In this document: piece after piece, positions 38,521 to 57,014 of the stretch
Position numbering within the stretch: position 1 is the first letter of the stretch
Layout of the letters: the number at the start of each line of letters is the position of its first letter
Origin: Gemmatimonadales bacterium
GTDB taxonomy: Bacteria > Gemmatimonadota > Gemmatimonadetes > Gemmatimonadales > GWC2-71-9
Assembly: GCA_035602245.1 (NCBI GenBank)
Contig: DATNMO010000007.1
Location: 5,981-69,980, forward strand
Length of the DNA stretch: 64,000 nt
Direction of reading: 5' to 3'
Position numbers and translations under genes: made by a program
Notes under the pieces: generated by a model
The model's database searches: none
Seen by the model: only the letters and a program-made list of their open reading frames with translations
What the model was told of the DNA's origin: nothing

Positions 38521-38536
38521 CTCGCTTCATCACACG

Positions 38537-40177: not shown

Positions 40178-40243
40178 GCGATATTAGCTGTTGAAGTTGC
40201 GTCGTTAGCTTCAGAAACTCCTTGAACCTCTAGGTGGCCAGCA

Positions 40244-42849: not shown

Positions 42850-43493
42850 GCGTCGTCCTGTGGATCCTCGCCGCCTACCTGCTGGGCGCCACACCCACCA
42901 GCTATCTCGCCGGCAAGCTGGGGCGGGGGATCGACTTGCGCGAGCACGGCTCGAAGAACCTGGGTGCGACCAACGTCTACCGTATCCTGGGGTGGAAGTA
43001 CGCCATCCCGGTTGCGCTGTTCGACATCGCGAAGGGGGCGATCCCCGTGCTCTTGTTCGCCCGCTGGGGGGGGGGCGCCGAGCAGCGCCCGTGGTTGCCG
43101 GTCGTCGTCGGCGTCGCGGCGGTGCTGGGCCACATGTTCTCGCCCTACGTGCGGTTCAGGGGTGGGAAGGGCGTGGCCACGGCGGCCGGCATGTTCCTCG
43201 CTCTCGCGCCACTCGCGCTGGTCCTCGCGTTTCCCGTTTGGGCGTTGTGCCTGTGGCTCACAGGATTCGTCTCGTTGAGCTCGATCATTGCCGCGCTCAG
43301 CGTCCCCGCGTGGGTGTGGCTCACGGCTCCCGACTCGCCCTACGTCTTCTGGGCCGGCGTCGCGCTCGCCCTCCTGATCGTCTTCGCGCACCGGCGCAAC
43401 ATCGCGCGACTGGTTGCCGGGACCGAGAGTCGGTTCCGTACGCGAGGGGTCGCCCCGTCAGAGCGTCCGACGGTCCGACCGTCCGACCGATGA
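42789..43493 (+). CDS. plsY: Glycerol-3-phosphate acyltransferase PlsY (start uncertain: ATG 42789 or CTG 42846)
   Basis: YLLGATPTSYL...GSKNLGATNV...GGKGVATAAG motifs. Confidence 0.82.
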   Translation: MGIHRGAADHQVSTQERPPLSVVLWILAAYLLGATPTSYLAGKLGRGIDLREHGSKNLGATNVYRILGWKYAIPVALFDIAKGAIPVLLFARWGGGAEQRPWLPVVVGVAAVLGHMFSPYVRFRGGKGVATAAGMFLALAPLALVLAFPVWALCLWLTGFVSLSSIIAALSVPAWVWLTAPDSPYVFWAGVALALLIVFAHRRNIARLVAGTESRFRTRGVAPSERPTVRPSDR

Positions 43494-44485
43494 AGATCGC
43501 GGTCGTGGGTGGCGGTGCTTGGGGAACGGCGCTCGCGGATCTGCTCGTGCGCAAGGGCGACACGGTCACGCTGTGGGCGCGCGAGCCCGAGGTGGTCGAG
43601 GGCGTGAACCGCCGACACGTGAACGTGATGTTCCTGCCGGGCGCGTCCCTTGCGCCGGCGCTGCGCGCCGAGGGCGACCTCGCCAAGGCCGTGCGGGGCG
43701 CGGAGGTCATCGTCTCCGCGGCGCCGTCGCACGCCGTGCGGCCGGTGATGGCGCAGGCGGCAGCAGCACTGCAGAGTCCCGCGCCGCTCGTCGTGAGCGT
43801 CTCCAAGGGACTCGATCCGGAGAAGCTGGAGCGCCCATCCTGCGTGCTGGGCGAGGTGCTGCCGCGAGGCGTGCCGGTCGCCGTGCTGTCGGGTCCGTCG
43901 TTCGCGATGGAAGTGTTCCAAGGGCAGCCGACCGCCGTGGTCGCCGCGGCGCTCGATCACACGGTCGCGCAGCGGGCGCAGCGCGTGTTTTCAACTGGCT
44001 ACTTCCGCGTCTACTCGCACACCGACGTGGTAGGCGTCGAGCTGGGCGGCGCCCTCAAGAACGTGATCGCGCTCGCTGCCGGGATCCTCGAGGGGTTGGG
44101 ACTGGGCTACAACACACGCGCGGCGCTGATCACGCGGGGCCTCGCGGAGATCACGCGCCTGGGCGTGGAGCTCGGCGCGCAGCCGATGACGTTCGCCGGC
44201 CTAGCAGGAATGGGCGATCTGATTCTGACAGCGACAGGCGCCCTGTCGCGCAATCGCGCCCTCGGAGTCGCCCTGGGGCAGGGGCAGACGCTGGAGCAGG
44301 CGCTCGCGGGAAAGCCGGCCGTCGTGGAAGGCGTGAACACGGCCCGCACGGCGGTGGCGCTGGGCGAGCGGCACGGCGTCGAGCTGCCGATCGCGCGCGA
44401 AGTGGCCAACGTCCTCTTCGAGAACAAGGCGCCGCGGCAAGCGATCACGGATCTGATGGAGCGGGAGCTCAAAGCAGAGCTATGA
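43490..44485 (+). CDS. gpsA: NAD(P)H-dependent glycerol-3-phosphate dehydrogenase
   Basis: MKIAVVGGGAWGTALA Rossmann, GALKNVIALAAG. Confidence 0.92.
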   Translation: MKIAVVGGGAWGTALADLLVRKGDTVTLWAREPEVVEGVNRRHVNVMFLPGASLAPALRAEGDLAKAVRGAEVIVSAAPSHAVRPVMAQAAAALQSPAPLVVSVSKGLDPEKLERPSCVLGEVLPRGVPVAVLSGPSFAMEVFQGQPTAVVAAALDHTVAQRAQRVFSTGYFRVYSHTDVVGVELGGALKNVIALAAGILEGLGLGYNTRAALITRGLAEITRLGVELGAQPMTFAGLAGMGDLILTATGALSRNRALGVALGQGQTLEQALAGKPAVVEGVNTARTAVALGERHGVELPIAREVANVLFENKAPRQAITDLMERELKAEL

Positions 44486-44874
44486 GCACCGGGTCCCCGA
44501 CGCAACCCGTGCAGGAGTTCTTCTCGATCGGCGAGGTCTGCCAGCTCACCGATCTCAAGCCGCACGTGCTGCGGTATTGGGAGAGCCAGTTTCGCTTCCT
44601 GAATCCCGCCAAGAATCGCTCGGGCAATCGCGTGTATCAGCGCCGTGAGATCGAGCTGATCATGCTGGTGAAGCACCTCCTGTACACGGAGAAGTACACG
44701 ATTGAAGGTGCGCGCCAGAAGATCGAGCAGTACCGGCGCTCAGGCGAGCTCAAGCCCGAGGCGCGCCGCGCCCTCGCCACCGAAACGGTGAAGGAGCTCC
44801 GTGCGGAGCTCAAGTCGGTCCTGGGCATCCTCGAAGGGCACACACCGCCGAATGCCTCCCCTGGTGCGCGCTGA
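44482..44874 (+). CDS. MerR-family transcriptional regulator
   Basis: HTH FSIGEVCQLTDLKPHVLRYWE...R..GNRVY. Confidence 0.8.
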   Translation: MSTGSPTQPVQEFFSIGEVCQLTDLKPHVLRYWESQFRFLNPAKNRSGNRVYQRREIELIMLVKHLLYTEKYTIEGARQKIEQYRRSGELKPEARRALATETVKELRAELKSVLGILEGHTPPNASPGAR

Positions 44875-45556
44875 GCTCCGGGTCGCGGTCGTCATACCCG
44901 CGTACGAAGCGGCGGCCACTATCACGGATGTGGTCGCACGCGTCCAGGCTGCATGGCCGTCAGCCTATGTCATCGTCGTCGACGATGGTTCGCGCGATGG
45001 CACCGTCTCCGCCGCCGCGAGCGGAGACGTCGTGGTGGGCCACGATTCGAACCTCGGCAAGGGAGCCGCCCTGCGCGACGGCATTCACGCAGCGATCACC
45101 CACGGGGCCGCCGTCGTCATCACGCTCGATGCCGATGGTCAGCATCCTCCGGAGGAGATCCCCCGTCTGGTCGCGCCGATCGCCGAGGGTCGGGCGGATC
45201 TGGTGCTGGGCGCGCGCCGCCGCGCGCCGCCGATGCCCTTCGGGCGGCGGTGCACCAATTGGCTTTCGGCCCGCCTGGCCACGCGCATTGGCGGGCAGGT
45301 CGTGAGCGACGCGCAGACGGGGTTTCGCGCCTTCACCCGGGAGGTCGCGCTCCGCGTGGCGCCTCGGGAAGAGCGCTACGCCTTCGAGACGGCTTTTCTG
45401 TTGGACGCACTCGCGGCAGGCACCCGCGTGACGTGCGTACCGATCCCCACCGTTTACGACGGCGCGCGCAGCCACTTCCGCCCCTGGGCGGACACGTGGC
45501 GCCTGGCGCGGGTGTTCGCGCGCCATGCAGGGCGGATCGTGGCAGGAGCGGCATGA
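44852..45556 (+). CDS. Family 2 glycosyltransferase
   Basis: VVIPAYEAA...VVDDGSRDGT...LDADGQH (DXD). Confidence 0.8.
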   Translation: MPPLVRAELRVAVVIPAYEAAATITDVVARVQAAWPSAYVIVVDDGSRDGTVSAAASGDVVVGHDSNLGKGAALRDGIHAAITHGAAVVITLDADGQHPPEEIPRLVAPIAEGRADLVLGARRRAPPMPFGRRCTNWLSARLATRIGGQVVSDAQTGFRAFTREVALRVAPREERYAFETAFLLDALAAGTRVTCVPIPTVYDGARSHFRPWADTWRLARVFARHAGRIVAGAA

Positions 45557-46320
45557 GCGACGACAGCCGCCTGCGCATTCTCGTGTCGAACGACGACGGG
45601 GTGCTCGCACCGGGGATCGCCTTGCTCGCGGACGTCTGCGCGGCGGTGGGGCAGGTCACCGTGGTCGCTCCGGATCGGGAACAGAGCGGCACGTCCCACT
45701 CGCTCACGCTGCATCGCCCGCTGCGGGCGCACCGGCGGTCCGATGGCACCTTCCAGGTGGACGGCACGCCCACCGATTGCGTCATGCTCGCCCTGGGCGT
45801 GCTCATGCCCGACGGGCCCAACTGGGTCATCTCCGGCGTAAATCATGGGCCCAACATGGGGGAAGACGTCCTCTACTCGGGCACGGTGGCCGCGGCGATG
45901 GAAGGGCTCGCCGCCGGCATCCCCAGCGTCGCCGTATCGTACGGCAGTTCGGACATCGAGCATCTGGAGAGCCATCGCCCGGGCCTGCAGCGGATCATCG
46001 AGCGGCTCGTCAAGGTCGAGAACTTTCCGGGGGAGACGCTGCTGAATATCAATCTGCCGCCGATCCCCGGCGATCAGGTCAAAGGCGTGAAGGTCACGAA
46101 CCTGGGCAGCCGCGTGTTTCATGAAGAAATCGCCAAGATGAAAGATCCCTGGGGTCGCGAGATACACTGGATCGGCGGGGGTCACGTGACCTGGTCGGGC
46201 GGCTCGGATTCCGACTTCCAGGCGGTGAGCGACGGATACATCTCCGTGACGCCGCTGCACGTGGACATGACCAATTACAAGCTGCTGGAGGTGGTGCGGA
46301 AGTGGAATCTGGGCAAATGA
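45553..46320 (+). CDS. surE: 5'/3'-nucleotidase SurE
   Basis: ILVSNDDG, SGVNHGPN, YSGTVAAAMEG. Confidence 0.92.
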   Translation: MSDDSRLRILVSNDDGVLAPGIALLADVCAAVGQVTVVAPDREQSGTSHSLTLHRPLRAHRRSDGTFQVDGTPTDCVMLALGVLMPDGPNWVISGVNHGPNMGEDVLYSGTVAAAMEGLAAGIPSVAVSYGSSDIEHLESHRPGLQRIIERLVKVENFPGETLLNINLPPIPGDQVKGVKVTNLGSRVFHEEIAKMKDPWGREIHWIGGGHVTWSGGSDSDFQAVSDGYISVTPLHVDMTNYKLLEVVRKWNLGK

Positions 46321-46970
46321 GTGGGAGCCACGACGGCTACGGCGGGTACCGCGCGCGGCTTGTCGAGCAGCTGCGCGCCCAGGGCATTCGCGATCTCGCC
46401 GTACTGCGGGCGTTCGCTGCCACGCCGCGACATCTGTTTGTGCCCCAGGCGGTGCGCCACCGGGCGTATGAGGACGCCGCGCTGCCGATCGGGACGGGCC
46501 AGACGATTTCCCAACCGTTTACCCAGGCTCGCTACCTCGAAACGCTCGCCCTCAAGGGGAAGGAACGTGTCCTCGAGATCGGCACCGGCTCCGGTTATCA
46601 GACCGCGCTACTCGCCGCGCTCGCCGAGCAAGTCTTCAGCATCGAGCGCATGCGCGGCTTGGCCGAAACCGCCCAGGCGGCCCTCAAAGCCGCCGGCGTG
46701 CCGAATGTTTCCCTGCTCGTTGGAGACGGGACATTGGGCTGGAGCGCGTACGCCCCGTACGATGCGATCCTCGTCGCGGCTGGGGGCCCGGAGGTTCCGC
46801 CGCCACTCGTCGAGCAGCTGGCGCCGCAGGGACGGATGATCATTCCGCTGGGCGCAAAAGGCGCCCAGACCCTGACCCTGGTCCGGCGTGACGAGAACGG
46901 CATCCGAGCGACGCCGTTGGGCGAGGCGCGGTTCGTCCCCCTGGTGGGGGAGCACGGCTTCGATGGTTGA
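46317..46970 (+). CDS. pcm: Protein-L-isoaspartate O-methyltransferase
   Basis: GQTISQP, VLEIGTGSGYQTA. surE-pcm synteny. Confidence 0.9.
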   Translation: MSGSHDGYGGYRARLVEQLRAQGIRDLAVLRAFAATPRHLFVPQAVRHRAYEDAALPIGTGQTISQPFTQARYLETLALKGKERVLEIGTGSGYQTALLAALAEQVFSIERMRGLAETAQAALKAAGVPNVSLLVGDGTLGWSAYAPYDAILVAAGGPEVPPPLVEQLAPQGRMIIPLGAKGAQTLTLVRRDENGIRATPLGEARFVPLVGEHGFDG

Positions 46971-47580
46971 ACGCTTCATCGACTGGCTGCTACACACGCT
47001 GCTCGCGCTCGGCTATCCCGGAATCGTCGGGTTGATGGCGATGGAATCGTCAATCCTGCCGGTGCCGAGCGAGCTGGTGATGCCCCCGGCGGGGTACTGG
47101 GCGGCCAAAGGCGAGATGAACTTCTTCGTGGTGCTGGCGTGCGGGGTGCTGGGCAGCGTCATTGGGGCGTTGGCCAACTATTACGGCGCCCAATGGATCG
47201 GGCGGCCGCTGATCCAGCGCTACGGCAAGTACGTGCTTCTCAGCGAGAAGAACTTGCAGCGTTCGGAACGGTTCTTCGCGCAGCATGGAGAGATCAGCAC
47301 GCTCATTGGGCGTTTATTCCCCGTCATCCGGCACCTCATCTCGATCCCGGCAGGCCTGCATCGCTTGCCGCTGCCCAAGTTCATCACGTATACGGCCATC
47401 GGCGCGCTGGTTTGGTGTGCGATTCTCACCTGGATTGGCTATTTCCTCGGTCAGCATGAGGGCGTTTTGCGCAACGAGGAGATCCACCGCTATGTCACGT
47501 GGGCCCTCCTGGCCCTGATTCCGCTCGCCGCCGTCGTGGTGCTCGTGTACGTTCTGCGCCGGCGCCGTAAGGCCCTGTGA
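46963..47580 (+). CDS. DedA-family membrane protein
   Basis: YPGIVGLMAMESSILPVPSE and the GRLFPVIRHLISIPAG re-entrant motif. Confidence 0.85.
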   Translation: MVERFIDWLLHTLLALGYPGIVGLMAMESSILPVPSELVMPPAGYWAAKGEMNFFVVLACGVLGSVIGALANYYGAQWIGRPLIQRYGKYVLLSEKNLQRSERFFAQHGEISTLIGRLFPVIRHLISIPAGLHRLPLPKFITYTAIGALVWCAILTWIGYFLGQHEGVLRNEEIHRYVTWALLALIPLAAVVVLVYVLRRRRKAL

Positions 47581-47849
47581 CCGCGCGCCGCTGGATCGTG
47601 CGCGGCCTGGTGCAGGGGGTGGGGTTCAGGTGGTTTGTCGGGCGTGAAGCCGATCGGTTGGGCCTGCGGGGATTTGTACGCAACCTTTCCGACGGAACGG
47701 TTGAAGTGGTTTCGCAGGGTGCCGAGGCGGCGCTCGATGCGCTGGAGCGACACATCAGCCGCGGCCCGTCGCATGCGCGAGTGGATGCCGTGGAGCGCCT
47801 TCACGTTCCAGTTGAACTGGATGTTCCTACGTCGTTCGATATCAGGTGA
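47577..47849 (+). CDS. acyP: Acylphosphatase
   Basis: 90 aa, V.G.VQGVGFR and G.VRN..DG.V signatures. Confidence 0.85.
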   Translation: MTARRWIVRGLVQGVGFRWFVGREADRLGLRGFVRNLSDGTVEVVSQGAEAALDALERHISRGPSHARVDAVERLHVPVELDVPTSFDIR

Positions 47850-47858
47850 CTCCGAGAC

Positions 47859-48401
47859 TTGAGCCCCCGGCCGGTGCCTACACTCGACGACCTGAAGCGC
47901 GCCATTCGCGACGTGCGCAATTTCCCCAAGCCCGGGATCATTTTCCGGGACGTCACGCCGGTGCTGCTCGACGTGGAATTGTTCGCGCGCGCTGTCACCC
48001 TGATGGCAGAGCCGTACCGGGACGCGCGGATCTCGCGGGTCGTGTCCATCGAGTCGCGCGGATTCCTGTTCGGAGCGCCGATCGCGCTGGCGCTCAGGGC
48101 AGGGCTGGTCCCGATCCGGAAACCGGGGAAACTGCCGGCGGCCACCGAGAGGGTCGAGTACGCCCTCGAGTACGGGACCGATGCGCTGGAGATGCACCAC
48201 GACGCCGTGCAGCCCGGGGATCGTGTGCTCATCGTGGACGACGTACTGGCTACGGGAGGCACGGCAAACGCCGCGGCGCAGCTCGTGGGCGGCACCGGTG
48301 GCGCCGTCGTGGGGTTCAGCTTCCTCATCGAGCTCGACAACTTGAAGGGCCGCCAGCGCCTGCAAGGGAGGCGCGTCGAGGCCTTGCTGCACTACACGTA
48401 A
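47859..48401 (+). CDS. apt: Adenine phosphoribosyltransferase (TTG start)
   Basis: FPKPGIIFRD and the PRPP loop VLIVDDVLATGGT. Confidence 0.92.
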   Translation: MSPRPVPTLDDLKRAIRDVRNFPKPGIIFRDVTPVLLDVELFARAVTLMAEPYRDARISRVVSIESRGFLFGAPIALALRAGLVPIRKPGKLPAATERVEYALEYGTDALEMHHDAVQPGDRVLIVDDVLATGGTANAAAQLVGGTGGAVVGFSFLIELDNLKGRQRLQGRRVEALLHYT

Positions 48402-48548: not shown

Positions 48549-49229
48549 ATGGCGACGCAGACGGCAACACCAGTGGGCGGGAGCAACCCGGCGAGGCTCC
48601 AGGTTGAGCCGGCCTCCGAGCGGCTGTTGGCGTGGATCAAGGCCCACAAGCAAGCCGCAACGTGGATAGGTGCGGTCCTCGTGGTGGCGCTCGTGTTGTT
48701 CGTGTGGACGCTGTCGTCCAATCGCCGCAGCGAGGAGATCGCGAGCCGGGAGCTTCAGGGGGCGCGCTTCGCATTCGAGAACAAGAATCTGCCGCTCGCC
48801 GCCAGCGAGTTGGCCCGCATCGTCGAGAACTATTCCGGTACCAATGCAGCCCAGGAGGGGCGACTGCTGCTGGCGCAGGTGCGGCTGCTGCAGGGGCAAC
48901 CCCAGCAGGCGGTCGAGGTGCTGCGGGACTTCGCCCCAGGCGCGGGAAAGGCGTTCCGCGCGCAGGCGTACGGCCTCCTGGGTGCTGCCTATGAGAACAT
49001 GGCCCGACCCAGAGAAGCCGCGGAGGCCTATGAAAAGGGGGCCGAGGAGGCCCGTATGGACTTCCTGAAGGTGCAGTTGCTGTCGGATGCCGGACGGGCG
49101 TGGACGATCGCTAGCGAGAGCACGAAGGCGATTGCAACCTACCGGCGGATCGTGAAGGACTTCCCGAAAGAGGGGACGGCGACCGAGGCGAAGGTGCGCC
49201 TGGGTGAGCTCACCAAAGGTGCACTATGA
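48549..49229 (+). CDS. Membrane-anchored TPR protein (YfgM-like topology)
   Basis: Single N-terminal TM WIGAVLVVALVLFVW, then TPR-like helices. Confidence 0.65.
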   Translation: MATQTATPVGGSNPARLQVEPASERLLAWIKAHKQAATWIGAVLVVALVLFVWTLSSNRRSEEIASRELQGARFAFENKNLPLAASELARIVENYSGTNAAQEGRLLLAQVRLLQGQPQQAVEVLRDFAPGAGKAFRAQAYGLLGAAYENMARPREAAEAYEKGAEEARMDFLKVQLLSDAGRAWTIASESTKAIATYRRIVKDFPKEGTATEAKVRLGELTKGAL

Positions 49230-49238
49230 CGGCAGTCA

Positions 49239-49266
49239 ACTTCGTATAATAGATGTTATGTTAAGT
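49239..49266. other. dif: dif-like XerC/XerD chromosome-dimer resolution site
   Basis: ACTTCGTATAA-TAGATG-TTATGTTAAGT compared with E. coli dif GGTGCGCATAA-TGTATA-TTATGTTAAAT gives 20/28 identical and 10/11 in the XerD arm. It sits in the only AT-rich spacer, exactly at the convergence of the + and - gene blocks. Confidence 0.7.
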
Positions 49267-49295
49267 TGAGCGGTGTGTGAATGTGGACAAGCCCC

Positions 49296-50090
49296 TCAAG
49301 TAATCACACCCCTGAACACAATCCGCCCCTCCCCAGCAAGCCAGACATCGTCATAGCGGCCGCTCCCAGCCTTGGCCGCCTTGATCCCAAGCAAGCGCCC
49401 GCTGCGGGTCTGGATGTTGATGGGTAGGCGTCCCAATCCCCATTCCTGGATCGCACACGCCGCGGCGACCGCGCCCGTCCCGCAGGCTAGCGTCTCGGCC
49501 TCGACGCCACGCTCGTACGTCCGCATCCGCCATACCCCCTGTTCGCCGGGAGAGATAAAGTTGATGTTCGCGCCATCCGGCGCGAGCGCCGGGTCGAACC
49601 GCAGCGCGGCACCGCGCCGCATGAGGTTCACGGCGTCTACCTCGTCGAGCAGCACCACGAGATGGGGCACGCCCACCTGCCCCAGGGCTGCCTGCAGCTC
49701 CCCTGGGACCAATGCCAGGCCCCCGACCGGTGCGGGCGGCTCTACCGCAGCGAGATGGAGCTCGGCCCGGCCCGGCTCCGTCACCCGGCTACGATAGGTG
49801 CCGGCGTCAGTCTCGAGATCCATGCCATCCGGCGATGCCAGGCTCAAGTGCACGGCGAGGGTGGTGCTGCACAGGGCCGCGTTTCCGCACATGGCGGCGT
49901 GGGAACCGTCGGCATTGTAGTAGATCATGCGGGCCGTGCCGGGCCGAGAGCCCGGGCCGACGAACACGACGCCATCCGCGCCCACTCCGGTGCCGCGGGC
50001 GCAGACGATCTGCATGTCTTCGGGCGACCAGTCGGCCGGCGCGGACACGCGCGCGTCCACCATGACGAAATCGTTCCCCGATCCCGTCAT
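49296..50090 (-). CDS. dapF: Diaminopimelate epimerase (start uncertain; conserved strand begins at CTG 50105)
   Basis: GSGNDFVMVD, catalytic Cys motifs MCGNA and ACGTG. Confidence 0.88.
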   Translation of the reverse strand: MTGSGNDFVMVDARVSAPADWSPEDMQIVCARGTGVGADGVVFVGPGSRPGTARMIYYNADGSHAAMCGNAALCSTTLAVHLSLASPDGMDLETDAGTYRSRVTEPGRAELHLAAVEPPAPVGGLALVPGELQAALGQVGVPHLVVLLDEVDAVNLMRRGAALRFDPALAPDGANINFISPGEQGVWRMRTYERGVEAETLACGTGAVAAACAIQEWGLGRLPINIQTRSGRLLGIKAAKAGSGRYDDVWLAGEGRIVFRGVIT

Positions 50091-50110
50091 CTTGTAGACG
50101 TGCAGGCCGG

Positions 50111-50833
50111 TTAGATGCGGCCGAACCAGGCCATGAGCCGGAGGCGCGGCACCTTCCACACCGCCTCGCGGACGATGGCCCGATTCATCTTGCTCTGCCC
50201 CTCGGTCCGGTCGACGAACACGATCGGAATTTCCCGGAGCTTGAACCCTTTTCGCCATGCGCGAACGCTCATCTCGATTTGGAAAGCGTACCCGTTGGAG
50301 ACGACCTGGGACAGGTCAATCGCTTCGAGCACGCGCCTGCGAAAGCACTTGAACCCACCTGTCAGGTCCCAGATCCTGAGGCCGGTCACCCAACGGGCGT
50401 AGATGTTGGCTAAGTACGATAGCACGAGACGGCCCATCGGCCAATTGACGACCGTCACCCTCCCCTGCAGGTAGCGCGACCCCAGGACGAGGTCGGCATC
50501 CGTAATGGCCTTGAGAAAGTCGGTGAGGTGCGCCGGGTCGTGCGAGAAGTCGGCATCCATCTCGAAGACGTAGTCGTATCCCCGCTCGAGCGCCCACTTG
50601 AAGCCGGTGATGTAGGCGGTGCCCAGCCCCAGCTTTCCCTCTCGATGGATCGTGTGGACCCGGGGATTGGTGCGGGCGAGCTCGTCGGCAATCACGCCCG
50701 TGCCGTCAGGTGAATTGTCGTCCACGACGAGTATCTCGAGCCGCGGATCCTGCGCCAGCACCTGGGGCGCGATCTGGGGGAGATTCACCGCCTCGTTGTA
50801 GGTCGGGATGACCACCAGCGCGCGCTCAGGCAC
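50111..50833 (-). CDS. Polyprenol-phosphate mannosyl/glycosyl-transferase (DPM1/Ppm1-like GT2)
   Basis: VVIPTYNEA.NL, VVDDNSPDGT, EMDADFSHDP. A GTG start at 50833 overlaps the upstream stop by 8 nt. Confidence 0.85.
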   Translation of the reverse strand: MPERALVVIPTYNEAVNLPQIAPQVLAQDPRLEILVVDDNSPDGTGVIADELARTNPRVHTIHREGKLGLGTAYITGFKWALERGYDYVFEMDADFSHDPAHLTDFLKAITDADLVLGSRYLQGRVTVVNWPMGRLVLSYLANIYARWVTGLRIWDLTGGFKCFRRRVLEAIDLSQVVSNGYAFQIEMSVRAWRKGFKLREIPIVFVDRTEGQSKMNRAIVREAVWKVPRLRLMAWFGRI

Positions 50834-53135
50834 GCCGGCGTCTCCGGGCGATCGCGGGCGCCACCCAGACGGCAACGACCAGGAGCAACGAAACGAGCGT
50901 GACGATCTTGCCGCGCCCATATGCCCCGCTGCTGAAGGCAAGCTCCACGCGATTCGCTCCCGCCTGCAGCGGCACCGTGATGAGTGTCCAGTCTCCTCGC
51001 AGGACCGGTGCCGGCGCCCCGTTTACAGTGGCGCGCCAATCAGGATACCAGTTCTCGGCTACGAGCAGGTACGACGGCGTCGTCGGAGACGGATCGAGCG
51101 TAATGGTCATGCGGCCCGGTTCCCATTGCGTCACCGTGGCGCGCGCGGCACTCGGAGCCGGCAGCTGCTCGAGCGGAGGGACGGTGTTGCCTACGCGCGC
51201 GTCGAGCAGCACCACGCGGTCGTACGCCATGCGGGGATCCACCAGCGTCGTCACGATCTGCGCCGAATCGAGCGTCACCGCGGCCGGCACGACCCGCGCG
51301 TACGGCGCAGGCGTGCTCCGCTCAAAGAGGTGTGCCGGCGTGCCCGAGGAAGTCATCGCGTCCCGCAGCACCCGGGTAAAGCCCGGGATGGAGTCGAGAC
51401 CTTGTGCGAGCGCGGGAACGATCACCCACCGCACGGCGAACAGGTCCCAGAGGTGCAGGTTCGCCAGATTGCGCCACTCCCCGCGCCCGCCCATCACGTC
51501 GTCGAAGTAGCGGATCTCGACACCGTGCTCGCCTAGGAGCTGAGGTACGTCCAGCGCCATCAAGACTGCGCCCGGATACACGGCATGGTGTGAGCCGAGG
51601 AATGGGCCGAGGTCGAGGGCTCGAGTAGGCGCCGCGGGCGCAGCCGCTCTGATGTGCTCGGTGACGGGATCGGGGCGAAAGAGATCGCGATCGGTCGTGC
51701 TGTACGTCCAAAACGGTTTTGCGTTGAGCCAGAGATCGGCGCCGACCACGAGGGCCAGTAGGACGGTCCAGCGCGCGGGCGTCAGCCGGCCCCGCAGCCC
51801 GGCCCAGGCCAGGGCCGCGACGGCCGCGAGTGCCGCGGCGCTCGTGACCGCGCCGAAGGTGATGTCGGCTTTCGCGACCGACTGGGCGTGACTGATGGCG
51901 ACCGCCATGTTGCCGAAGACGCCGGCGGCGGCCAGCAGGGCCAGCACCGCGGCGGCGATGAACCAGACGCGGACGTGCATGTTGCACTTGGCCTCGTCGC
52001 TGCGCCGTTCCAGCCGCTCCACACCAAAGGCGGCGAAACACGAGACGATGAACGCGACGACGAAGAATGCCATCCCGGGTGCGCGCATCTGCTTGACGTA
52101 CGGCATGACCGTCCACCAAAGACGGTAGAACGGCGTGCCACTGCCCAGGCCGATCAGGAGGAACAGCAGCCCGATGCCGCCGAGCCAGAGCCGCAGCCTC
52201 GCGTCCTTCCCTGCCCCGGCGCCCAGCACCGCCAGCGCGACGACGGGCAGTCCAAGGTATTCGGAGTGCAGCTTGATCGGGTTCGATCCCCAGTACGCCG
52301 TGCCCTGGCCCACGAAGTTCTTGAGGAAGAACTCGGGGAGGTGCATCCAGGGAATCGCGTAGCTCGTCGCCCCGGCGAAGCCGCCTTGATACCCGCCCGC
52401 GCGCGATGACAGCGGGATATGGACGAACGCCGGGAAGAGCTGCACCGCCGCGATCCCAAACCCGAGCGCGACCGCGGCCAGCGCCAGCCCCAAGCGACTG
52501 AAGCGATCCGCGGGCGCGGCCGTCGAAGCTGTGCCGAAGGCGAGAAACAGGGCGAACAGTCCCGCCGCAATCAGCATGTAGTAGGTGACCTGGACGTGCT
52601 GGCTGAGTATGCTGAGGCCCACGCCGAGCGCGGTCAGGCCGTACCCGGAGAGGCGGCGATCGCGCATCCCCATCACGAGCCCGAGCAGCACGAGCGGTAG
52701 CAGCGCCGTGACGACGAGCTTGCCGTCGTGTCCCGGCTGGACATACGAAGCGACGACGCCCGAGAGTTGATACGCGATCCCGCCGACGACCGCGCCGGCC
52801 CATGACACCTGGAGCCGCCGCAGCAGCAGGTAGGTGAACAGACCGGCCAGAACGTAGTGAACGAAGAAACCGATGTTGATGACTGTGGCGGTCGGCAGCA
52901 CGAGGCGGAGAAACGCCGTCGGGTAAAGGACGTCGCCGGTGCCGAGCGCGCCCACGTAGGGCATGCCTGCAAAGATCTCGGGATTCCACAGCGGAACGTG
53001 TCCCAGACGGCGCCACCACTCGGCGCCCCAGCCCCGGAAGGGCAGCCCGGCTGTGACCTGGTCGCTCCACGGTCCGGCCAGCCATTTCCCCTGCAGCATG
53101 GGCAAGCTGAGGATCGCGATCCAGAGCGTCAGCAA
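50826..53135 (-). CDS. YfhO-family polytopic membrane protein (putative GT-C glycosyltransferase)
   Basis: More than 12 predicted TM segments, LWNPEIFAGMPY motif, periplasmic C-terminal domain with the YfhO-typical ENWYPDWRATVNGAPAPVLRGDW...AGANRVELAF and a terminal TM. Confidence 0.7.
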   Translation of the reverse strand: MLTLWIAILSLPMLQGKWLAGPWSDQVTAGLPFRGWGAEWWRRLGHVPLWNPEIFAGMPYVGALGTGDVLYPTAFLRLVLPTATVINIGFFVHYVLAGLFTYLLLRRLQVSWAGAVVGGIAYQLSGVVASYVQPGHDGKLVVTALLPLVLLGLVMGMRDRRLSGYGLTALGVGLSILSQHVQVTYYMLIAAGLFALFLAFGTASTAAPADRFSRLGLALAAVALGFGIAAVQLFPAFVHIPLSSRAGGYQGGFAGATSYAIPWMHLPEFFLKNFVGQGTAYWGSNPIKLHSEYLGLPVVALAVLGAGAGKDARLRLWLGGIGLLFLLIGLGSGTPFYRLWWTVMPYVKQMRAPGMAFFVVAFIVSCFAAFGVERLERRSDEAKCNMHVRVWFIAAAVLALLAAAGVFGNMAVAISHAQSVAKADITFGAVTSAAALAAVAALAWAGLRGRLTPARWTVLLALVVGADLWLNAKPFWTYSTTDRDLFRPDPVTEHIRAAAPAAPTRALDLGPFLGSHHAVYPGAVLMALDVPQLLGEHGVEIRYFDDVMGGRGEWRNLANLHLWDLFAVRWVIVPALAQGLDSIPGFTRVLRDAMTSSGTPAHLFERSTPAPYARVVPAAVTLDSAQIVTTLVDPRMAYDRVVLLDARVGNTVPPLEQLPAPSAARATVTQWEPGRMTITLDPSPTTPSYLLVAENWYPDWRATVNGAPAPVLRGDWTLITVPLQAGANRVELAFSSGAYGRGKIVTLVSLLLVVAVWVAPAIARRRRRA

Positions 53136-53202
53136 CCCCGTCGCGGCGAGCGTGGGATGGGCCGGGACGTACGGTGTGTAGGGCGTTACCGCGGGAGCGT
53201 TG

Positions 53203-54126
53203 TTAGGGCGACTCAGAAGGCCTCTCCGGTGGCGAGTGGCGCACTAGCACGATGGCGAGCAGCGCCGCGCCGGCTTCTGTGACCGTGAGCAATACGCGCG
53301 AGCCCACACTCACCGCCACCGCCCCACCGCTGCCGAGGGCCGGCGTGAGCAGGCTGATCATGACGAGCTCGCGGACGCCGATGCCCCCGGGTGCGAACAG
53401 CGCTAAAGTGCCCAGAATGTAGCTGAGAGTGAAGGCGCCGGCTGCAGCGGCATAGGTGAGGTGCGTGTCCGGGAGCAAGCCGCGGACGAACAGCCAGAAC
53501 GCGACGCCGTAGGTCAACCATCCCAGGAACATCAGTGCTCCCGCGAGTGCCACCGCCGACAGCGGCAGCGGCGTGAGGGGGCTCGCCGTGCTCATCAACC
53601 GGCCCAGCCACCGGGCCGTGGGTCCCCACACCAGGACGCCGAGCGATGCCAGCGCGAGCCCGAAGCCGGCGACGAGCCGCAACGCCGACGTTGCCTGCGG
53701 CGTGGCAGCCGCGACGACCGCCACTCCGGTGCCGAGGACGAGTGCTTGGAAAGCGACGGCGGAGGCGGCAGCGGCGCCGCCGCGCACGCCCGCACGCTGC
53801 GCCAGTACGACCAGCCCCGTGACGCTCCAGATCTTGCCGGGAACGTAGCGTCCGAGATTCGACAGGCTCCAGACGCGTGCCGCGACGCCGAACGGGATTC
53901 GTTGCGCCCACCCGGCCAGGAGCCGCCGCCATGACTCGATATAGAACGCGTACGTGAGGAACACCGCAAGCGTGGCCAGCGCCAGCCAGCCGGGTTGCAC
54001 GTCGAGATTCACGTGCAGCGAGCGGAACTCCGTCCAGTTCCGCTGCACCGTCCGTGCGACGAGCACAACAACGACCAGGGCGACGGCCCCCTGGATTGCC
54101 CAGAGCCACCGCCGCGTGTTGGTCAC
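53203..54126 (-). CDS. UPF0104 / flippase-like (LPG-synthase-TM type) membrane protein
   Basis: About 8 TM segments. The conserved pattern SLSNLGRYVPGKIW and PGGIGVRE is typical of this family. Confidence 0.65.
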   Translation of the reverse strand: MTNTRRWLWAIQGAVALVVVVLVARTVQRNWTEFRSLHVNLDVQPGWLALATLAVFLTYAFYIESWRRLLAGWAQRIPFGVAARVWSLSNLGRYVPGKIWSVTGLVVLAQRAGVRGGAAAASAVAFQALVLGTGVAVVAAATPQATSALRLVAGFGLALASLGVLVWGPTARWLGRLMSTASPLTPLPLSAVALAGALMFLGWLTYGVAFWLFVRGLLPDTHLTYAAAAGAFTLSYILGTLALFAPGGIGVRELVMISLLTPALGSGGAVAVSVGSRVLLTVTEAGAALLAIVLVRHSPPERPSESP

Positions 54127-54139
54127 CCGATGCGGGGGG

Positions 54140-54757
54140 TTAGTCCTTGACGAACTTGTAGGCGACGGAGCGCGCGAGCATCCACCACGGCGCGGGAATT
54201 GGCGGATAGAAGTACGTGCCGCCCCAATCCACCAGCCGGAGGCCGTTCATCTCTCCCAGCCGGCTGATCGTCTGCCGGGTCCAGCTGTAGATGTGCCCCT
54301 GCTTGTCCGCGACGTGGAAGAGATTCCAGATGACCTCCTTCACGTGATAGGGATTAGGCACGGAGACCATCCACACGCCCCCGGGCCGCAGAACTCGATG
54401 GATTTCGCCCGCCGTATTGTACGCGGTGGGCGTGTGTTCGAGGACCTCTACCATGAAGACGTAATCGAACGAGGCGTCGGGAAACGGGAGCCCCGACGTG
54501 ATATCGTGAATCATGATATCCGGAGCGGCGAACTCAGGGGCGATGTCGAGTCCCTGATACTTCACGTCCCGCGGCAGGTACTTGCGGAGGTCGCCGTTGC
54601 GCGAGCCGATGTCGAGCACCGCGCTGCCAGGGCGTACCTGTGCCAGCTGCATGTGCTTGCGGAAGCGCATCCGCTCCTCGCCCGAATTCCGCCAATTGGC
54701 CCGTTCGCTGTAGAACTTGGTGAGCGCGGGAGACGACGTCGCAATCCGTTCAGCCAT
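54140..54757 (-). CDS. Class I SAM-dependent methyltransferase
   Basis: VLDIGSRNGD motif I, FDYVFMVEVLEH. Confidence 0.8.
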   Translation of the reverse strand: MAERIATSSPALTKFYSERANWRNSGEERMRFRKHMQLAQVRPGSAVLDIGSRNGDLRKYLPRDVKYQGLDIAPEFAAPDIMIHDITSGLPFPDASFDYVFMVEVLEHTPTAYNTAGEIHRVLRPGGVWMVSVPNPYHVKEVIWNLFHVADKQGHIYSWTRQTISRLGEMNGLRLVDWGGTYFYPPIPAPWWMLARSVAYKFVKD

Positions 54758-54852
54758 CTTTCGAAGTCCTTATGAGTCGCGTAGTTGTGGTCGACGCGGA
54801 CGGAAAGATAGTTGCCCCGGCAGGCATGGAGAAGGGTTATAGTATCACCCCC

Positions 54853-56058
54853 ATGCGCATTCTTCACGTGGTGACGGCGTTCCCTCGCACTCCCGACGAC
54901 GTCATCACCCCGTGGCTGGTGGAGCTGCTGCAGCGCCTGCGGGCCGCGGGCCACGAGGTCGAGGTGTTCACCTCGGCGTACAAGGGTGCTGGCGACCAGG
55001 TCTTCGCGGGAATCCCCGTCCATCGCTTCCGGTACTTCTTCCGCCGCTGGGAAAACCTGACCCACGAGGAGACGGCGCCGGACCGGATGCGGCGGTCCCT
55101 GCTCTATCGCCTGATGCCGTTCTGGTTCGTCAGCGCCGGGATGATCGCGATCTGGCGTCTGGCCCGCCGCCGGTCGTACGACGTGATCCACGTGCACTGG
55201 CCGCTGCCCCTGGCGCTTTTCGGGTGGGCGGCCCAGCGCGCGCGCCGTGCGCGCCCCACACCGATCGTCACGACGTTTTACGGCGTCGAGCTGCGCTGGG
55301 TAAAGAGCGCGCTCAAACCGCTCAAGCGGTTCATCGCGTGGGCCGCGCGCCGGTCCGCTCGCGTCGTGGCGATCTCGTCGTACACGGCTGCGGAGCTGCA
55401 GGAGCTGGTGGACGTGCCGGTCGATGTCATTCCCTACACCGCCGCCCTGCCCGCTCCGGAATCACGGACCCGAACGGCGGGGGGGGGGGGCGTGCCCACG
55501 GTGCTCTTCGTCGGCCGGCTGGTGGAGCGCAAGGGCGTCACGCACCTCATCGAAGCGGTGGCACGTCTGCGCGAGCGGTCCCTGCGGCTGGAGGTGGTCG
55601 GCGACGGCCCCGAGCGCCCGCGACTGGAAGCCCTCGCGCACAGCCGCGGCGTCGCCGACCGCGTCGTGTTTCGGGGGAAGATCTCCGATGCCGAGCTGCG
55701 CCGCGCGTACGCGGCCGCGGACGTCTTCGTATTGCCGTCGGTGCTGGATGCGCGCGGCGATACGGAAGGCTTGGGGGTCGTGCTACTCGAGGCGATGAAT
55801 TACGCGGTCCCCGTGATTGCGAGCCGGATCGGCGGCATCGTGGACATCGTCGCGGATGGGGAAACGGGTCTGCTCGTACCACCGGGGGATGAGACGGCGC
55901 TCGCGTCCGCGCTGGAGCGAGTGCTGAGCGATCCGGCCCTGGCTCGACGGCTCGGCGAAGCGGGCCGCGAGCGTCTCGCCGAGCGGTTCAACTGGGACGC
56001 GATAACCGCTCGATGGGATGCGGTGTATCGCAGTCTTGCCCGATCGCGGGAGGGCTAG
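54853..56058 (+). CDS. GT4 (GT-B) glycosyltransferase containing a G12 homopolymer
   Basis: MRILHVVTAFPR N-terminus. C-terminal LFVGRL...KG and EGLGVVLLEAMNYAVPVIASRIGG motifs. Confidence 0.85.
   Translation: MRILHVVTAFPRTPDDVITPWLVELLQRLRAAGHEVEVFTSAYKGAGDQVFAGIPVHRFRYFFRRWENLTHEETAPDRMRRSLLYRLMPFWFVSAGMIAIWRLARRRSYDVIHVHWPLPLALFGWAAQRARRARPTPIVTTFYGVELRWVKSALKPLKRFIAWAARRSARVVAISSYTAAELQELVDVPVDVIPYTAALPAPESRTRTAGGGGVPTVLFVGRLVERKGVTHLIEAVARLRERSLRLEVVGDGPERPRLEALAHSRGVADRVVFRGKISDAELRRAYAAADVFVLPSVLDARGDTEGLGVVLLEAMNYAVPVIASRIGGIVDIVADGETGLLVPPGDETALASALERVLSDPALARRLGEAGRERLAERFNWDAITARWDAVYRSLARSREG
55479..55490 (+). repeat. Homopolymeric G12 tract inside the GT4 coding sequence
   Basis: Direct count gives 12 consecutive G. 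They encode the Gly4 linker (TAGGGGVPT) between the two Rossmann halves. Confidence 0.95.
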
Positions 56059-57014
56059 CGCCCGTTCTTCTCTCTCAACCGCTCCACCTCCCGCTCCAAC
56101 GTCCGCAGCTCTTCCCTCATCCCCGCCAGCATTTCGCCCACGAAGCCGAAGCCGAACAGCACCACGCCGGAAATCACCAGGACCATGATCAGGTCGAGGA
56201 GGGGCCGGAAGCCCACGTGTGGCGGACCGAATCGCAGGTAGAGCGACACGGCGCCGACGAGCACTCCCAGCAGAAATAGCAGCGCGCCCGCGAAGCCGAA
56301 GAACATCATCGGCTTGCGGCCGAAGCGCAGCTGGAACCAGACCGACAGGAGATCGAGAACCCCCACCGGGATCCGCCCGATCCCGAACTTCGAGGTCCCC
56401 GCACGCCGCGGGTGGAGCGGTACCGGGCGCTCGGCGAGGCGGAATCCCTGCGCCGCGGCGATCACGACCATGAAGCGGTGCCAATCCGGGCGGGTGGGCA
56501 GCGCCTCCATCACCTCGCGGCGGTAGGCTTTTACGGAGTTCAGGTCGGTGACGCGCACCCCGAAGAGCCAGCGGCACAGGGCGTTGTACACGCTGGAGAC
56601 GAACCGCTTTTCGTATTGGCCCTGCTTGGCCCCGGTAACGATGTCCGCCTGCCCTGCCAGAATGGGCGCGACGAGACCGGGGATCTCGGCCGGCAGATAC
56701 TGCAGGTCCGCGGGATAGAAGACTAGCACGCGGCCGCGCGCTGCGTCGGCGGCCGACTTGAGCGCGTCCGCGATGCCCCGCTGGGTCCGGTGGGTGACGA
56801 TGCGAACGAAGGCGTGCTTGGCAGCGAGCTCCTCGAGTACCCGCGCCGTCCCGTCGTGGCTGCCGTCGTTGACGATCACCACCTCGCACGCGTAGGGCAG
56901 CGGCAGCAGCGCCTCACGGGTCAAGCGCACGAACTCGGGGAGGTTCTCCGCCTCGTCCTTCGCGGGCACGAGCACGCTGACCTCGGGGACCGAAGACGGG
57001 CTGGCGAGGCTCAC
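56055..57014 (-). CDS. Membrane-anchored GT2 (GtrB/ArnC-like polyprenyl-phosphate glycosyltransferase)
   Basis: VLVPAKDEAENL, VNDGSHDGT, and two C-terminal TM helices. A GTG start at 57014 overlaps the rpoN stop (GTGA). Confidence 0.82.
   Translation of the reverse strand: MSLASPSSVPEVSVLVPAKDEAENLPEFVRLTREALLPLPYACEVVIVNDGSHDGTARVLEELAAKHAFVRIVTHRTQRGIADALKSAADAARGRVLVFYPADLQYLPAEIPGLVAPILAGQADIVTGAKQGQYEKRFVSSVYNALCRWLFGVRVTDLNSVKAYRREVMEALPTRPDWHRFMVVIAAAQGFRLAERPVPLHPRRAGTSKFGIGRIPVGVLDLLSVWFQLRFGRKPMMFFGFAGALLFLLGVLVGAVSLYLRFGPPHVGFRPLLDLIMVLVISGVVLFGFGFVGEMLAGMREELRTLEREVERLREKNGR

What the first reader, a model, noticed from the sequence alone, without database searches (positions are those of the whole stretch)
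49230..49295. dif-like XerC/D site at the point where two long co-oriented gene blocks converge: probable replication terminus
The spacer 49230-49295 is the only markedly AT-rich stretch in 64 kb. It contains ACTTCGTATAA TAGATG TTATGTTAAGT (49239-49266). Aligned to E. coli dif (GGTGCGCATAA TGTATA TTATGTTAAAT), it matches 7/11 in the XerC arm, 3/6 in the spacer and 10/11 in the XerD arm, with the expected 11-6-11 geometry. To its left, about 50 consecutive genes (948-49229) are all on the + strand. To its right, all genes but one are on the - strand. That is the pattern expected when genes are co-oriented with two converging replication forks. No CDS-based annotation would report this site.
Basis: partly seen in the sequence, partly recalled or inferred. 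Interest (0 to 1): 0.7.

Follow-up and report, generated by a model that had tools for sequence, protein, structure and literature searches.

The report
Chromosomal dif site of a Gemmatimonadales bacterium
The 28-base AT-rich sequence is very probably the chromosome's dif site, where the XerC/XerD recombinases separate joined sister chromosomes at cell division; this is an ordinary feature already predicted for the phylum, though here it has an unexplained conserved motif next to it.

Summary
ACTTCGTATAA-TAGATG-TTATGTTAAGT lies at 49239-49266. It is unique in the window, is its AT-richest 30-mer, and sits in a 66-bp spacer between a long + gene block and a mostly - block.

The dif reading is strongly supported:
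- A matrix built from 13 dif sites of other phyla scores it 41.9 bits; the next best place scores 7.0.
- It matches the dif predicted in 2011 for Gemmatimonas aurantiaca at 23/28.
- The arms were fixed by my search patterns. The independent signals are one copy per contig in 15 Gemmatimonadota genomes and 109 high-GC soil-metagenome contigs (two palindromic artefacts set aside), unconserved flanks, and neighbouring DapF down to 42% identity.
- The FtsK-guiding octamer GGGNAGGG reverses polarity exactly at the site: 149:16 on the left and 15:137 on the right across 99 loci. It ranks first of 7120 octamer patterns and points to the site even in genes facing away from it.

Caveats: cumulative GC skew in this genome has no extremum at 49.25 kb, only a change of slope. 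xerC, xerD and ftsK, genome-wide copy number and the true fork-meeting point could not be tested.

Verdict: a new member of a known kind, of low interest. One extra: a DnaA-box-like motif, TGTGGAnA, lies exactly 15 bp beyond the XerD arm in 79 of 99 loci and is unexplained.

The parts
49239..49266 (+). Complete 28-bp dif site, ACTTCGTATAATAGATGTTATGTTAAGT
   Evidence: The identical 28-mer is in 44 of 118 single-match metagenome contigs. L069 differs by one base.
49239..49249 (+). Putative XerC-binding arm, ACTTCGTATAA
   Evidence: 7/11 to E. coli dif, 9/11 to B. subtilis dif and to the predicted G. aurantiaca dif, and 11/11 to gammaproteobacterial dif variants such as L053 and L060. Positions 3-11 were fixed by the search patterns, so their constancy in the collected sites is not independent evidence.
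49250..49255 (+). Central 6-bp region (TAGATG) where strand exchange would occur
   Evidence: This region was left free in the searches. Almost all variation among the related sites lies here (TAGATG, GATATG, GAGATG, TATATG, TATATA and others), as expected for dif.
49256..49266 (+). Putative XerD-binding arm, TTATGTTAAGT
   Evidence: 10/11 to E. coli dif. The ...AAGT ending occurs in 12 of the 15 Gemmatimonadota sites from the genome scan, where the last two bases were free.
49282..49290 (-). Conserved dif-adjacent motif TGTGGACAA, which reads TTGTCCACA on the - strand (DnaA-box-like). It starts 16 nt after the XerD arm.
   Evidence: TGTGGAnA is at this exact offset in 79 of 99 non-redundant loci, with only 46 other occurrences in 723 kb on both strands. 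The 15-nt spacer and the left flank are not conserved. Function unknown.
48549..49229 (+). TPR_21-domain gene ending 9 bp before the site; last gene of the + block
   Evidence: Pfam PF09976. Called as 226 aa on L001 and L007. Found left of the site in 88 of 97 metagenome loci.
49296..50090 (-). dapF (diaminopimelate epimerase), first gene of the - block, converging on the site
   Evidence: Pfam PF01678. Exact protein found on L007 and L008. Found right of the site in 81 of 85 metagenome loci at 42-79% identity.
31983..48104 (+). Left zone of GGGNAGGG (KOPS-type) motifs pointing toward the site: + strand starts at 31983, 34118, 36756, 38783, 43164, 44276 and 48097; one opposed at 38596
   Evidence: 7:1 in this zone against 3:6 in 1-30 kb, where gene orientation is the same.
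49327..62800 (-). Right zone of GGGNAGGG motifs on the - strand, pointing toward the site: starts at 49327, 50458, 52209, 55445 and 62793; none on the + strand
   Evidence: Two more (65002, 65312) lie on the overlapping contig L265, giving 0:7. The one at 55445 is on the non-coding strand of the lone + gene.

Best explanation
This is the chromosomal dif site of an uncultured soil Gemmatimonadales bacterium.

Inferred mechanism, by homology with the E. coli and B. subtilis systems:
- When homologous recombination has joined the two sister chromosomes into a dimer, the septum-anchored translocase FtsK pumps DNA in the direction set by polar GGGNAGGG motifs. These point toward this site from both sides.
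- That brings the two dif copies together at the division septum.
- XerC binds the left arm (ACTTCGTATAA) and XerD the right arm (TTATGTTAAGT).
- FtsK activates XerD. The two recombinases then exchange strands across the 6-bp centre, which resolves the dimer.

Shown here: the sequence, its geometry, its uniqueness in the window, its recurrence as a single copy with unconserved flanks, the convergence of genes, and the polarity switch of GGGNAGGG at the site.

Inferred, not shown: binding by XerC and XerD, dependence on FtsK, and that replication forks actually meet nearby.
For: 1. Sequence. The site has the 11-6-11 layout. A matrix from 13 dif sites of other phyla scores it 41.9 bits against 7.0 for the next best place in the window. 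It matches the dif predicted for G. aurantiaca T-27 at 23/28 (PMC3025954 Table S1).

2. Distribution. A GTDB scan found the motif once per locus in 15 Gemmatimonadota assemblies of 60-73% GC, spanning Gemmatimonadales and Longimicrobiales, and no assembly appeared twice. A metagenome scan found 109 further high-GC contigs (118 single-match contigs in all), and variation among all 118 sites is almost confined to the free central 6 bp. Flanks show no conservation on the left, while the neighbouring proteins diverge to 42% (DapF) and 26% (TPR_21) identity.

3. FtsK guide motifs. GGGNAGGG counts are 149(+):16(-) left of the site and 15:137 right of it in 99 non-redundant loci (Fisher p = 1e-52). 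The switch falls in the 1-kb bins that touch the site, 16:0 then 4:35. The motif ranks first of 7120 NNNnNNNN patterns for polarity toward the site. In genes oriented away from the site it still points to the site, 26:5. In this genome alone the counts are 7:1 left (30-49 kb) and 0:7 right. [quoted passage not shown]

4. Context. Housekeeping genes converge on the site.

5. Literature. [quoted passage not shown]
Against: - Cumulative GC skew in this genome has no maximum at 49.25 kb. Skew is +0.027 left and +0.011 right out to 73.4 kb. Third-codon-position skew on the right runs opposite to what a leading strand should show.
- The pooled sign change in relatives (+0.042 to -0.015) is confounded by coding-strand composition.
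- GGGNAGGG polarity is absent in window 1-30 kb (3:6).
- No xerC, xerD or ftsK gene lies in the window or in any fetched Gemmatimonadota locus, so the enzymes are assumed from phylum-level data.
- The pooled loci are homologous, so motif counts are not fully independent.
- Genome-wide single copy is untested.
Confidence: 0.9

Rival explanations
1. The sequence is a Xer-type site that belongs to a mobile element: the junction of an integrated element that exploits Xer (IMEX), or a plasmid pdif-type module boundary, rather than the chromosome's own resolution site.
For: The same core pattern is found many times per contig on Acinetobacter plasmid-like contigs, the known pdif modules. A 64%-GC tailed-phage fragment with terminase and portal genes (L256 = L228) carries a site with the same arms, so elements using such sites exist in this setting.
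Against: The window holds only one dif-like site; the next best matrix score is 7.0 bits. The site is flanked directly by the housekeeping genes TPR_21 and dapF. This arrangement is kept in 81 of 85 and 88 of 97 related contigs at 42-79% DapF identity. No integrase, phage or plasmid genes lie nearby. The two contigs with two copies are palindromic assembly artefacts.
Confidence: 0.03
2. The conserved block is a gene-linked regulatory element of the TPR_21 or dapF genes, such as a protein operator, a bidirectional terminator or a 3' UTR structure. Its likeness to dif would then be incidental.
For: The site is syntenic with the same two genes across Gemmatimonadales. An imperfect inverted repeat extends to 14-nt arms, and a further inverted repeat (49265-49277 with 49305-49317) overlaps the dapF end. 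A weak sigma-70-like match lies on the - strand.
Against: In Longimicrobiales-type loci the neighbours differ, yet the 28-mer persists. The match to dif sites of unrelated phyla is far above chance. GGGNAGGG polarity converges on it, which no gene-regulatory role predicts. There is no Rfam match, and no terminator-like T-run hairpin in the spacer.
Confidence: 0.03
3. It is a genuine XerCD/dif site, but it does not mark where replication ends. The fork-meeting point and GC-skew shift lie elsewhere, and the gene convergence here is local.
For: Cumulative GC skew does not peak at the site within -49 to +24 kb. KOPS polarity fades beyond about 19 kb to the left. Kono et al. conclude that termination need not occur at dif, and they list genomes where dif and the skew shift point are far apart (PMC3025954).
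Against: In G. aurantiaca the two positions coincide to 0.011%. Skew in the phylum is weak (GC skew index 0.071), so 24 kb has little power. About 45-50 co-oriented genes on the left and 20 of 23 on the right converge on the site.
Confidence: 0.15

Closest known systems
E. coli dif / XerCD-FtsK chromosome dimer resolution (GGTGCGCATAA-TGTATA-TTATGTTAAAT)
   Same: 28 bp with 11-6-11 geometry. The XerD arm matches 10/11. There is one copy at the convergence of the replichore-oriented gene blocks. The same octamer family, GGGNAGGG, points to the site from both sides.
   Different: The XerC arm matches only 7/11 and the centre 3/6. The XerD arm ends in AAGT rather than AAAT. The GGGNAGGG motifs are much denser, about 1 per 2.3 kb in the pooled dif regions, against 1 per 11.6 kb in the E. 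coli dif region (PMC3384302). A conserved extra motif lies 15 bp beyond the XerD arm. No biochemical data exist.
Predicted dif of Gemmatimonas aurantiaca T-27 (AATGCGTATAATACATGTTATGTAAACT; Kono et al. 2011, PMC3025954 Table S1)
   Same: Same phylum. Identity is 23/28, including the CGTATAATA.ATGTTATGT core. That site lies 0.011% of the genome from the GC-skew shift point.
   Different: The outer arm positions differ: AATG against ACTT, and TAAACT against TTAAGT. I could not fetch the G. aurantiaca locus, so I do not know whether it lies between TPR_21 and dapF or has the adjacent TGTGGA motif.
B. subtilis dif (ACTTCCTAGAATATATATTATGTAAACT) with CodV/RipX
   Same: 22/28 identical, with the same ACTTC start of the XerC-type arm. 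Kono et al. note that the Firmicutes profile was the best seed for Gemmatimonadetes.
   Different: The B. subtilis guide motif GAGAAGGG is rare here: 2:0 and 1:1 in the window. The polar motif here is the proteobacterial type.
Acinetobacter plasmid pdif (XerC/D) sites
   Same: They share the core TTCGTATAA-N6-TTATGTTAA.
   Different: pdif sites occur many times per contig in both orientations on low-GC plasmids, where they bracket resistance modules. The present site is single, chromosomal, and flanked by housekeeping genes.

Membership tests
dif (XerC/XerD chromosome dimer resolution site) | 28-bp site of two 11-bp partly inverted arms around a 6-bp centre, matching the dif consensus, above all the XerD arm TTATGTTAAAT | tested here: met
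   10/11 in the XerD arm; inverted arms; 41.9 bits against 7.0 for the next place, using a matrix of 13 dif sites from other phyla.
dif (XerC/XerD chromosome dimer resolution site) | A single copy per chromosome | tested here: inconclusive
   Unique in the 64-kb window. One per contig in 15 Gemmatimonadota genome loci and 118 metagenome contigs (109 of them high-GC); the two apparent doubles are palindromic artefacts.
dif (XerC/XerD chromosome dimer resolution site) | Location at the GC-skew shift point, opposite the origin | tested here: not met
   No extremum of cumulative GC skew at 49.25 kb within -49 to +24 kb; only the slope falls, from +0.027 to +0.011. Power is low because skew in the phylum is weak (index 0.071 in G. 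aurantiaca). A whole-replicon test was not possible.
dif (XerC/XerD chromosome dimer resolution site) | Lies at the junction where FtsK-orienting polar sequences (KOPS) switch strand | tested here: met
   GGGNAGGG 149:16 left and 15:137 right in 99 loci. The switch falls in the bins touching the site. Rank 1 of 7120 patterns. 26:5 toward the site in contra-oriented genes. This genome alone gives 7:1 and 0:7.
dif (XerC/XerD chromosome dimer resolution site) | Recurs across related genomes independently of its flanks, with variation mainly in the central region | tested here: met
   Caveat: most arm positions were fixed by the search patterns, so arm constancy in the collected set is partly built in. 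The free positions and the unconserved flanks are the informative part.
dif (XerC/XerD chromosome dimer resolution site) | The genome encodes XerC and XerD (or a single Xer) and an FtsK with a gamma domain | not testable with these tools
Kono et al. analysed only genomes with KEGG XerCD orthologs, which included G. aurantiaca.
dif (XerC/XerD chromosome dimer resolution site) | Xer binding and FtsK-dependent recombination at the site | not testable with these tools
   This needs an experiment.
Plasmid or IMEX Xer sites (cer/psi, pdif, attP of CTX-type elements) | Located on a plasmid or at the border of an integrated element, often in two or more copies or with accessory sequences of about 180 bp on the XerC side | tested here: not met
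   The contig carries housekeeping genes. There is one site only. The XerC-side flank is unconserved. No mobile-element genes lie nearby.
DnaA box (for the adjacent motif at 49282-49290) | 9-mer matching TTATCCACA or the relaxed TTWTNCACA | tested here: inconclusive
   The - strand reads TTGTCCACA, which is 8/9 to TTATCCACA. In relatives the motif is TTnTCCACA with the third base free. The consensus is cited from memory. DnaA binding is untested and no cluster of boxes is present.

The most novel reading that the evidence does not exclude
In Gemmatimonadales, dif may be a composite site. The 28-bp XerCD core would be coupled, at a fixed 15-bp distance on the XerD side, to a second protein-binding element, TGTGGAnAA (TTnTCCACA on the other strand, DnaA-box-like). 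DnaA or an unknown terminus-specific factor would bind there and link dimer resolution or termination to another cell-cycle process. No dif-adjacent accessory element of this kind is known to me for chromosomal dif sites, and one literature search found none.
Probability: 0.2. Interest if true: 0.6.

Novelty: new member of a known kind. Interest (0 to 1): 0.25.

Why it matters
Taken alone this is routine: it adds a dif annotation to an uncultured Gemmatimonadales chromosome and marks its terminus region. It has three modest uses.

- It gives a phylum-specific dif consensus, ACTTCGTATAA-N6-TTATGTTAAGT. This can anchor the terminus in fragmented Gemmatimonadota genome bins and flag misassemblies. 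Two palindromic contigs were recognised this way.
- It suggests that the proteobacterial KOPS octamer GGGNAGGG also guides FtsK in a distant, FCB-related phylum, at unusually high density.
- It exposes a conserved motif at fixed spacing beside dif that current Xer models do not predict. If functional, that motif would be the interesting part.

Tried and rejected
- GC skew as proof of the terminus. Within the window, and with a 9.4-kb extension, cumulative skew shows no extremum at the site. The pooled flip in relatives is confounded by coding-strand composition, so I do not count it as independent evidence.
- Linking the locus to the G. aurantiaca dif position. I searched homologues of the neighbouring glycosyltransferase, but all 120 listed hits were close relatives at 85-100% identity.
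- Looking for xerC/xerD near the site.
- Second copies. Contigs L130 and L203, each with two inverted copies, are whole-contig palindromic assembly artefacts at 98% self-complementarity.
- RNA element. No Rfam match at E <= 1 in 48800-49700.
- Promoter or terminator. Only a weak 9/12 sigma-70-like match on the - strand, and no terminator in the spacer. A possible hairpin between 49265-49277 and 49305-49317 is not kept across relatives by eye, so I did not pursue it.
- B. subtilis-type guide motif GAGAAGGG. Too rare to be informative.
- De novo skewed 8-mers from the window alone. These gave only codon-related motifs; pooling across loci was needed.
- Viral contigs with the pattern. Most are low-GC and unrelated; only L256 is relevant.

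Full report
**Observation.**
The sequence ACTTCGTATAA TAGATG TTATGTTAAGT is at 49239-49266 on the + strand. It has no other match in the window with up to three mismatches, and none in 100 shuffles. It is the AT-richest 30-mer of the window, at 23% GC against 68% overall; the runner-up is 33%.

It lies in a 66-bp spacer (49230-49295). On the left is the stop of a TPR_21-domain gene (48549-49229, +). On the right is the stop of dapF (49296-50090, -).

Every gene I could confirm by third-codon-position GC and Pfam from about 3 to 49229 is on the + strand, roughly 45-50 genes. Right of the site, all but one (54772-56058) are on the - strand. An overlapping metagenome contig extends this to 73.4 kb, where 20 of 23 genes are on the - strand.

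The gene content is that of a chromosome: era, prfB, lysS, clpC, bamA, the lpx genes, murJ, uvrC, der, gpsA, surE, pcm, dapF, rpoN, the lpt genes, kdsA and pyrG. Source names identify the organism as a Gemmatimonadales bacterium from soil metagenomes.

**Is it more than chance?**
Against E. coli dif alone, 20/28 is only just above the best chance match in 200 simulated windows, which was 19. The site matches other references better:
- B. subtilis dif at 22/28 (simulated maximum 18).
- The dif predicted by Kono et al. (2011) for Gemmatimonas aurantiaca at 23/28 (simulated maximum 20).
- A gammaproteobacterial dif variant at 24/28.

A position matrix built only from 13 dif sites of other phyla scores the site at 41.9 bits. 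Its own reverse strand scores 19.3, and the next independent place in the window scores 7.0.

**Related sequences.**
It returned three kinds of hit:
- Acinetobacter contigs with many copies each, the known plasmid pdif sites.
- Single gammaproteobacterial dif sites ending in AAAT.
- Fifteen Gemmatimonadota assemblies (Gemmatimonadales and Longimicrobiales, 60-73% GC).

Each of the fifteen has one copy. The consensus is ACTTCGTATAAT-ATATR-TTATGTTAAGT, and no assembly appears twice.

A metagenome scan with the Gemmatimonadota-type pattern was also cut at its limit. It gave 120 contigs, 109 of them high-GC and carrying a single match. Forty-four of the 118 single-match contigs carry exactly the window's 28-mer. 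The differences among sites lie almost entirely in the central six bases, which the pattern left free.

The two contigs with two inverted copies are whole-contig palindromes, that is, assembly artefacts.

Most arm positions were fixed by my search patterns, so their constancy is partly built in. The informative facts are these:
- The copy number is one per contig.
- The left flank is completely unconserved.
- The neighbouring proteins have diverged to 42-79% (DapF) and 26-76% (TPR_21) identity while the site persists. It lies between these two genes in 81 of 85 and 88 of 97 contigs.
- In Longimicrobiales-type loci the neighbours differ, but the site is still there.

**Guide motifs for FtsK.**
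This is the strongest functional evidence. I oriented each locus by the site and removed near-duplicates, leaving 99 loci and 720 kb.

- The E. coli KOPS octamer GGGNAGGG occurs 149 times on the + strand and 16 on the - strand to the left of the site. To the right the counts are 15 and 137 (Fisher p = 1e-52).
- The switch falls in the 1-kb bins that touch the site: 16:0, then 4:35.
- In an unbiased ranking of all 7120 sufficiently frequent NNNnNNNN patterns by polarity toward the site, GGGNAGGG comes first (z = 14.3, 90% toward). The runners-up look like ordinary codon-usage effects at 77-83%.
- Gene orientation also converges on the site, so I separated the occurrences by gene direction. In genes that point away from the site, the motif still points toward it, 26:5. 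It therefore follows position, not coding strand. These counts come from crude gene calls on homologous loci and are not fully independent.
- In this genome alone the counts are 7:1 in 30-49.2 kb and 0:7 from the site to 73.4 kb. One of the seven lies on the non-coding strand of the lone + gene.
- In 1-30 kb, where genes have the same orientation, the count is 3:6. This shows there is no general coding-strand bias. It also shows that the polar zone on the left may be only about 20 kb in this stretch.

A skew of 0.90 meets the published criteria for KOPS in a dif region, as does a frequency of about one motif per 2.3 kb. Those criteria are a skew of at least 90% and a frequency of at least 1 per 40 kb (PMC3384302).

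**GC skew.**
- Skew on the + strand is +0.027 left of the site, +0.008 on the right within the window, and +0.011 out to 73.4 kb. Cumulative skew therefore keeps rising, and only the slope changes.
- Third-codon-position skew of the right-hand genes is -0.069 on their coding strand. That is the opposite of what a leading strand should show.
- Pooled relatives do change sign (+0.042 to -0.015, with left greater than right in 39 of 40 loci). First-codon-position G richness makes any coding strand G-rich, so this is confounded with gene orientation.
- Skew is weak in the phylum. The GC skew index is 0.071 in G. aurantiaca, below the level the authors call visible.

I therefore treat GC skew as uninformative at this scale. 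It is neither support nor refutation.

**Link to the literature.**
Kono et al. (PMC3025954) predicted dif in 641 genomes that have XerCD orthologs. One was a Gemmatimonadetes genome, G. aurantiaca T-27. Its predicted dif is AATGCGTATAATACATGTTATGTAAACT at 1,930,284, which is 0.011% of the genome from the GC-skew shift point. The kind of site, and its presence in this phylum, are therefore already known. I could not fetch that locus to compare neighbours.

**What could not be shown.**
No xerC, xerD or ftsK gene lies in the window or in any fetched Gemmatimonadota locus. Genome-wide copy number, the position relative to oriC, and the real fork-meeting point all need a closed genome. On the chromosome-level bin OZ220481.1 the site is at 44% of the record, but the origin position is unknown.

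**Mechanism.**
By homology, XerC binds the left arm and XerD the right arm. FtsK is steered by the converging GGGNAGGG motifs, reaches the site at the septum and activates XerD. Strand exchange across the central six bases then resolves chromosome dimers. Sequence, geometry, distribution and motif polarity are shown here. Binding, catalysis and FtsK dependence are inferred.

**Rivals.**
- A mobile-element Xer site is unlikely. There is one site, its housekeeping neighbours are constant, and no mobile-element genes are nearby.
- A gene-linked regulatory element is unlikely. The site persists with other neighbours, matches dif of unrelated phyla, and attracts KOPS polarity. There is also no Rfam match or terminator.
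- The reading 'dif, but not the actual terminus' remains open at about 15%.

**Noticed beside it.**
Exactly 15 nt beyond the XerD arm lies TGTGGACAA (49282-49290), which reads TTGTCCACA on the other strand. TGTGGAnA is at this offset in 79 of 99 non-redundant loci, and it occurs only 46 times elsewhere in 723 kb on both strands. The 15-nt spacer itself is variable.

The motif is missing from Longimicrobiales-type sites and from the phage-borne site. Among 143 non-Gemmatimonadota sites, only one has TGTGGA or TCCACA within 30 nt to the right. It is kept even where the dapF stop lies further away, so it goes with dif rather than with dapF.

It resembles a DnaA box; TTATCCACA is quoted from memory. 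One literature search found no report of a DnaA box next to dif. I cannot say what binds it.

**Verdict.**
The finding is correct and well observed, but it describes an ordinary, expected chromosomal feature. It is a new member of a known kind. Only the adjacent motif, and the apparent reuse of the proteobacterial KOPS in this phylum, go beyond routine annotation.

Noticed in passing
window 49282-49290 (and the same offset in L041, L069, L097, L089, L103, L032 and most of L129-L248): The conserved motif TGTGGAnAA (TTnTCCACA on the - strand, DnaA-box-like) starts exactly 16 nt after the XerD arm in 79 of 99 non-redundant Gemmatimonadales loci, across a variable 15-nt spacer. It is rare elsewhere, with 46 occurrences in 723 kb on both strands. 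It is absent from Longimicrobiales-type and non-Gemmatimonadota dif sites. Function unknown.
   Followed up: partly
window 30000-64000 and 99 related loci: The E. coli-type KOPS octamer GGGNAGGG is the most polar of 7120 octamer patterns around the Gemmatimonadota dif. It occurs about once per 2.3 kb, much denser than the 1 per 11.6 kb reported for the E. coli dif region. This suggests the FtsK recognition motif is shared with Proteobacteria.
   Followed up: yes
window 1-30000: In the far-left 30 kb GGGNAGGG shows no polarity (3 on +, 6 on -), although all genes are still on the + strand. GC skew is negative in 1-6 kb and 17-21 kb. The polar zone left of dif may be short, or this segment may have a different history.
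   Followed up: no
L256 (= L228), site at 9673-9700 of a 9917-bp contig: A 64%-GC tailed-phage fragment (terminase and portal domains, HNH endonuclease) carries ACTTCGTATAAGGTGGATTATGTTAAGT, with arms identical to the Gemmatimonadales dif, 245 bp from the contig end. It could be a prophage integrated at dif, or a phage that uses the host Xer system.
   Followed up: partly
L130 and L203 (metagenome contigs Ga0137420_1345223 and Ga0137417_1503452): Both contigs are self-reverse-complementary over their whole length at 98% identity, with dif duplicated in inverted orientation. They are palindromic assembly artefacts, not real second copies.
   Followed up: yes
L001/L008 (ENA scaffold_13, 215 kb): This 215-kb scaffold of the same strain ends about 170 bp beyond the TPR_21 gene, roughly 860 bp left of dif, so that assembly broke close to the site. 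Another assembly (L007) and the window read through it.
   Followed up: no
window 49296-50090: dapF sits directly next to dif in 81 of 85 related contigs. In E. coli, from memory, dapF is co-transcribed with xerC. Here no xer gene is nearby, so the juxtaposition may be coincidence.
   Followed up: no
window 12460-16577: An operon of a UVR-motif protein (McsA-like), an ATP:guanido phosphotransferase (McsB-like) and ClpC. This arginine-kinase/Clp arrangement is best known from Firmicutes.
   Followed up: no
window 20435-21976 and 29445-30869: An LpxC-FabZ fusion protein lies inside the lpxD-lpxC/fabZ-lpxA-lpxB-lpxK cluster. There is also a BshC (bacillithiol synthesis) homologue.
   Followed up: no
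L009, L026, L072, L085 and other Acinetobacter loci: The search core TTCGTATAA-N6-TTATGTTAA occurs 2-6 times per short Acinetobacter contig, in both orientations. These are the known plasmid pdif module boundaries, and they dominated the truncated genome scan.
   Followed up: no
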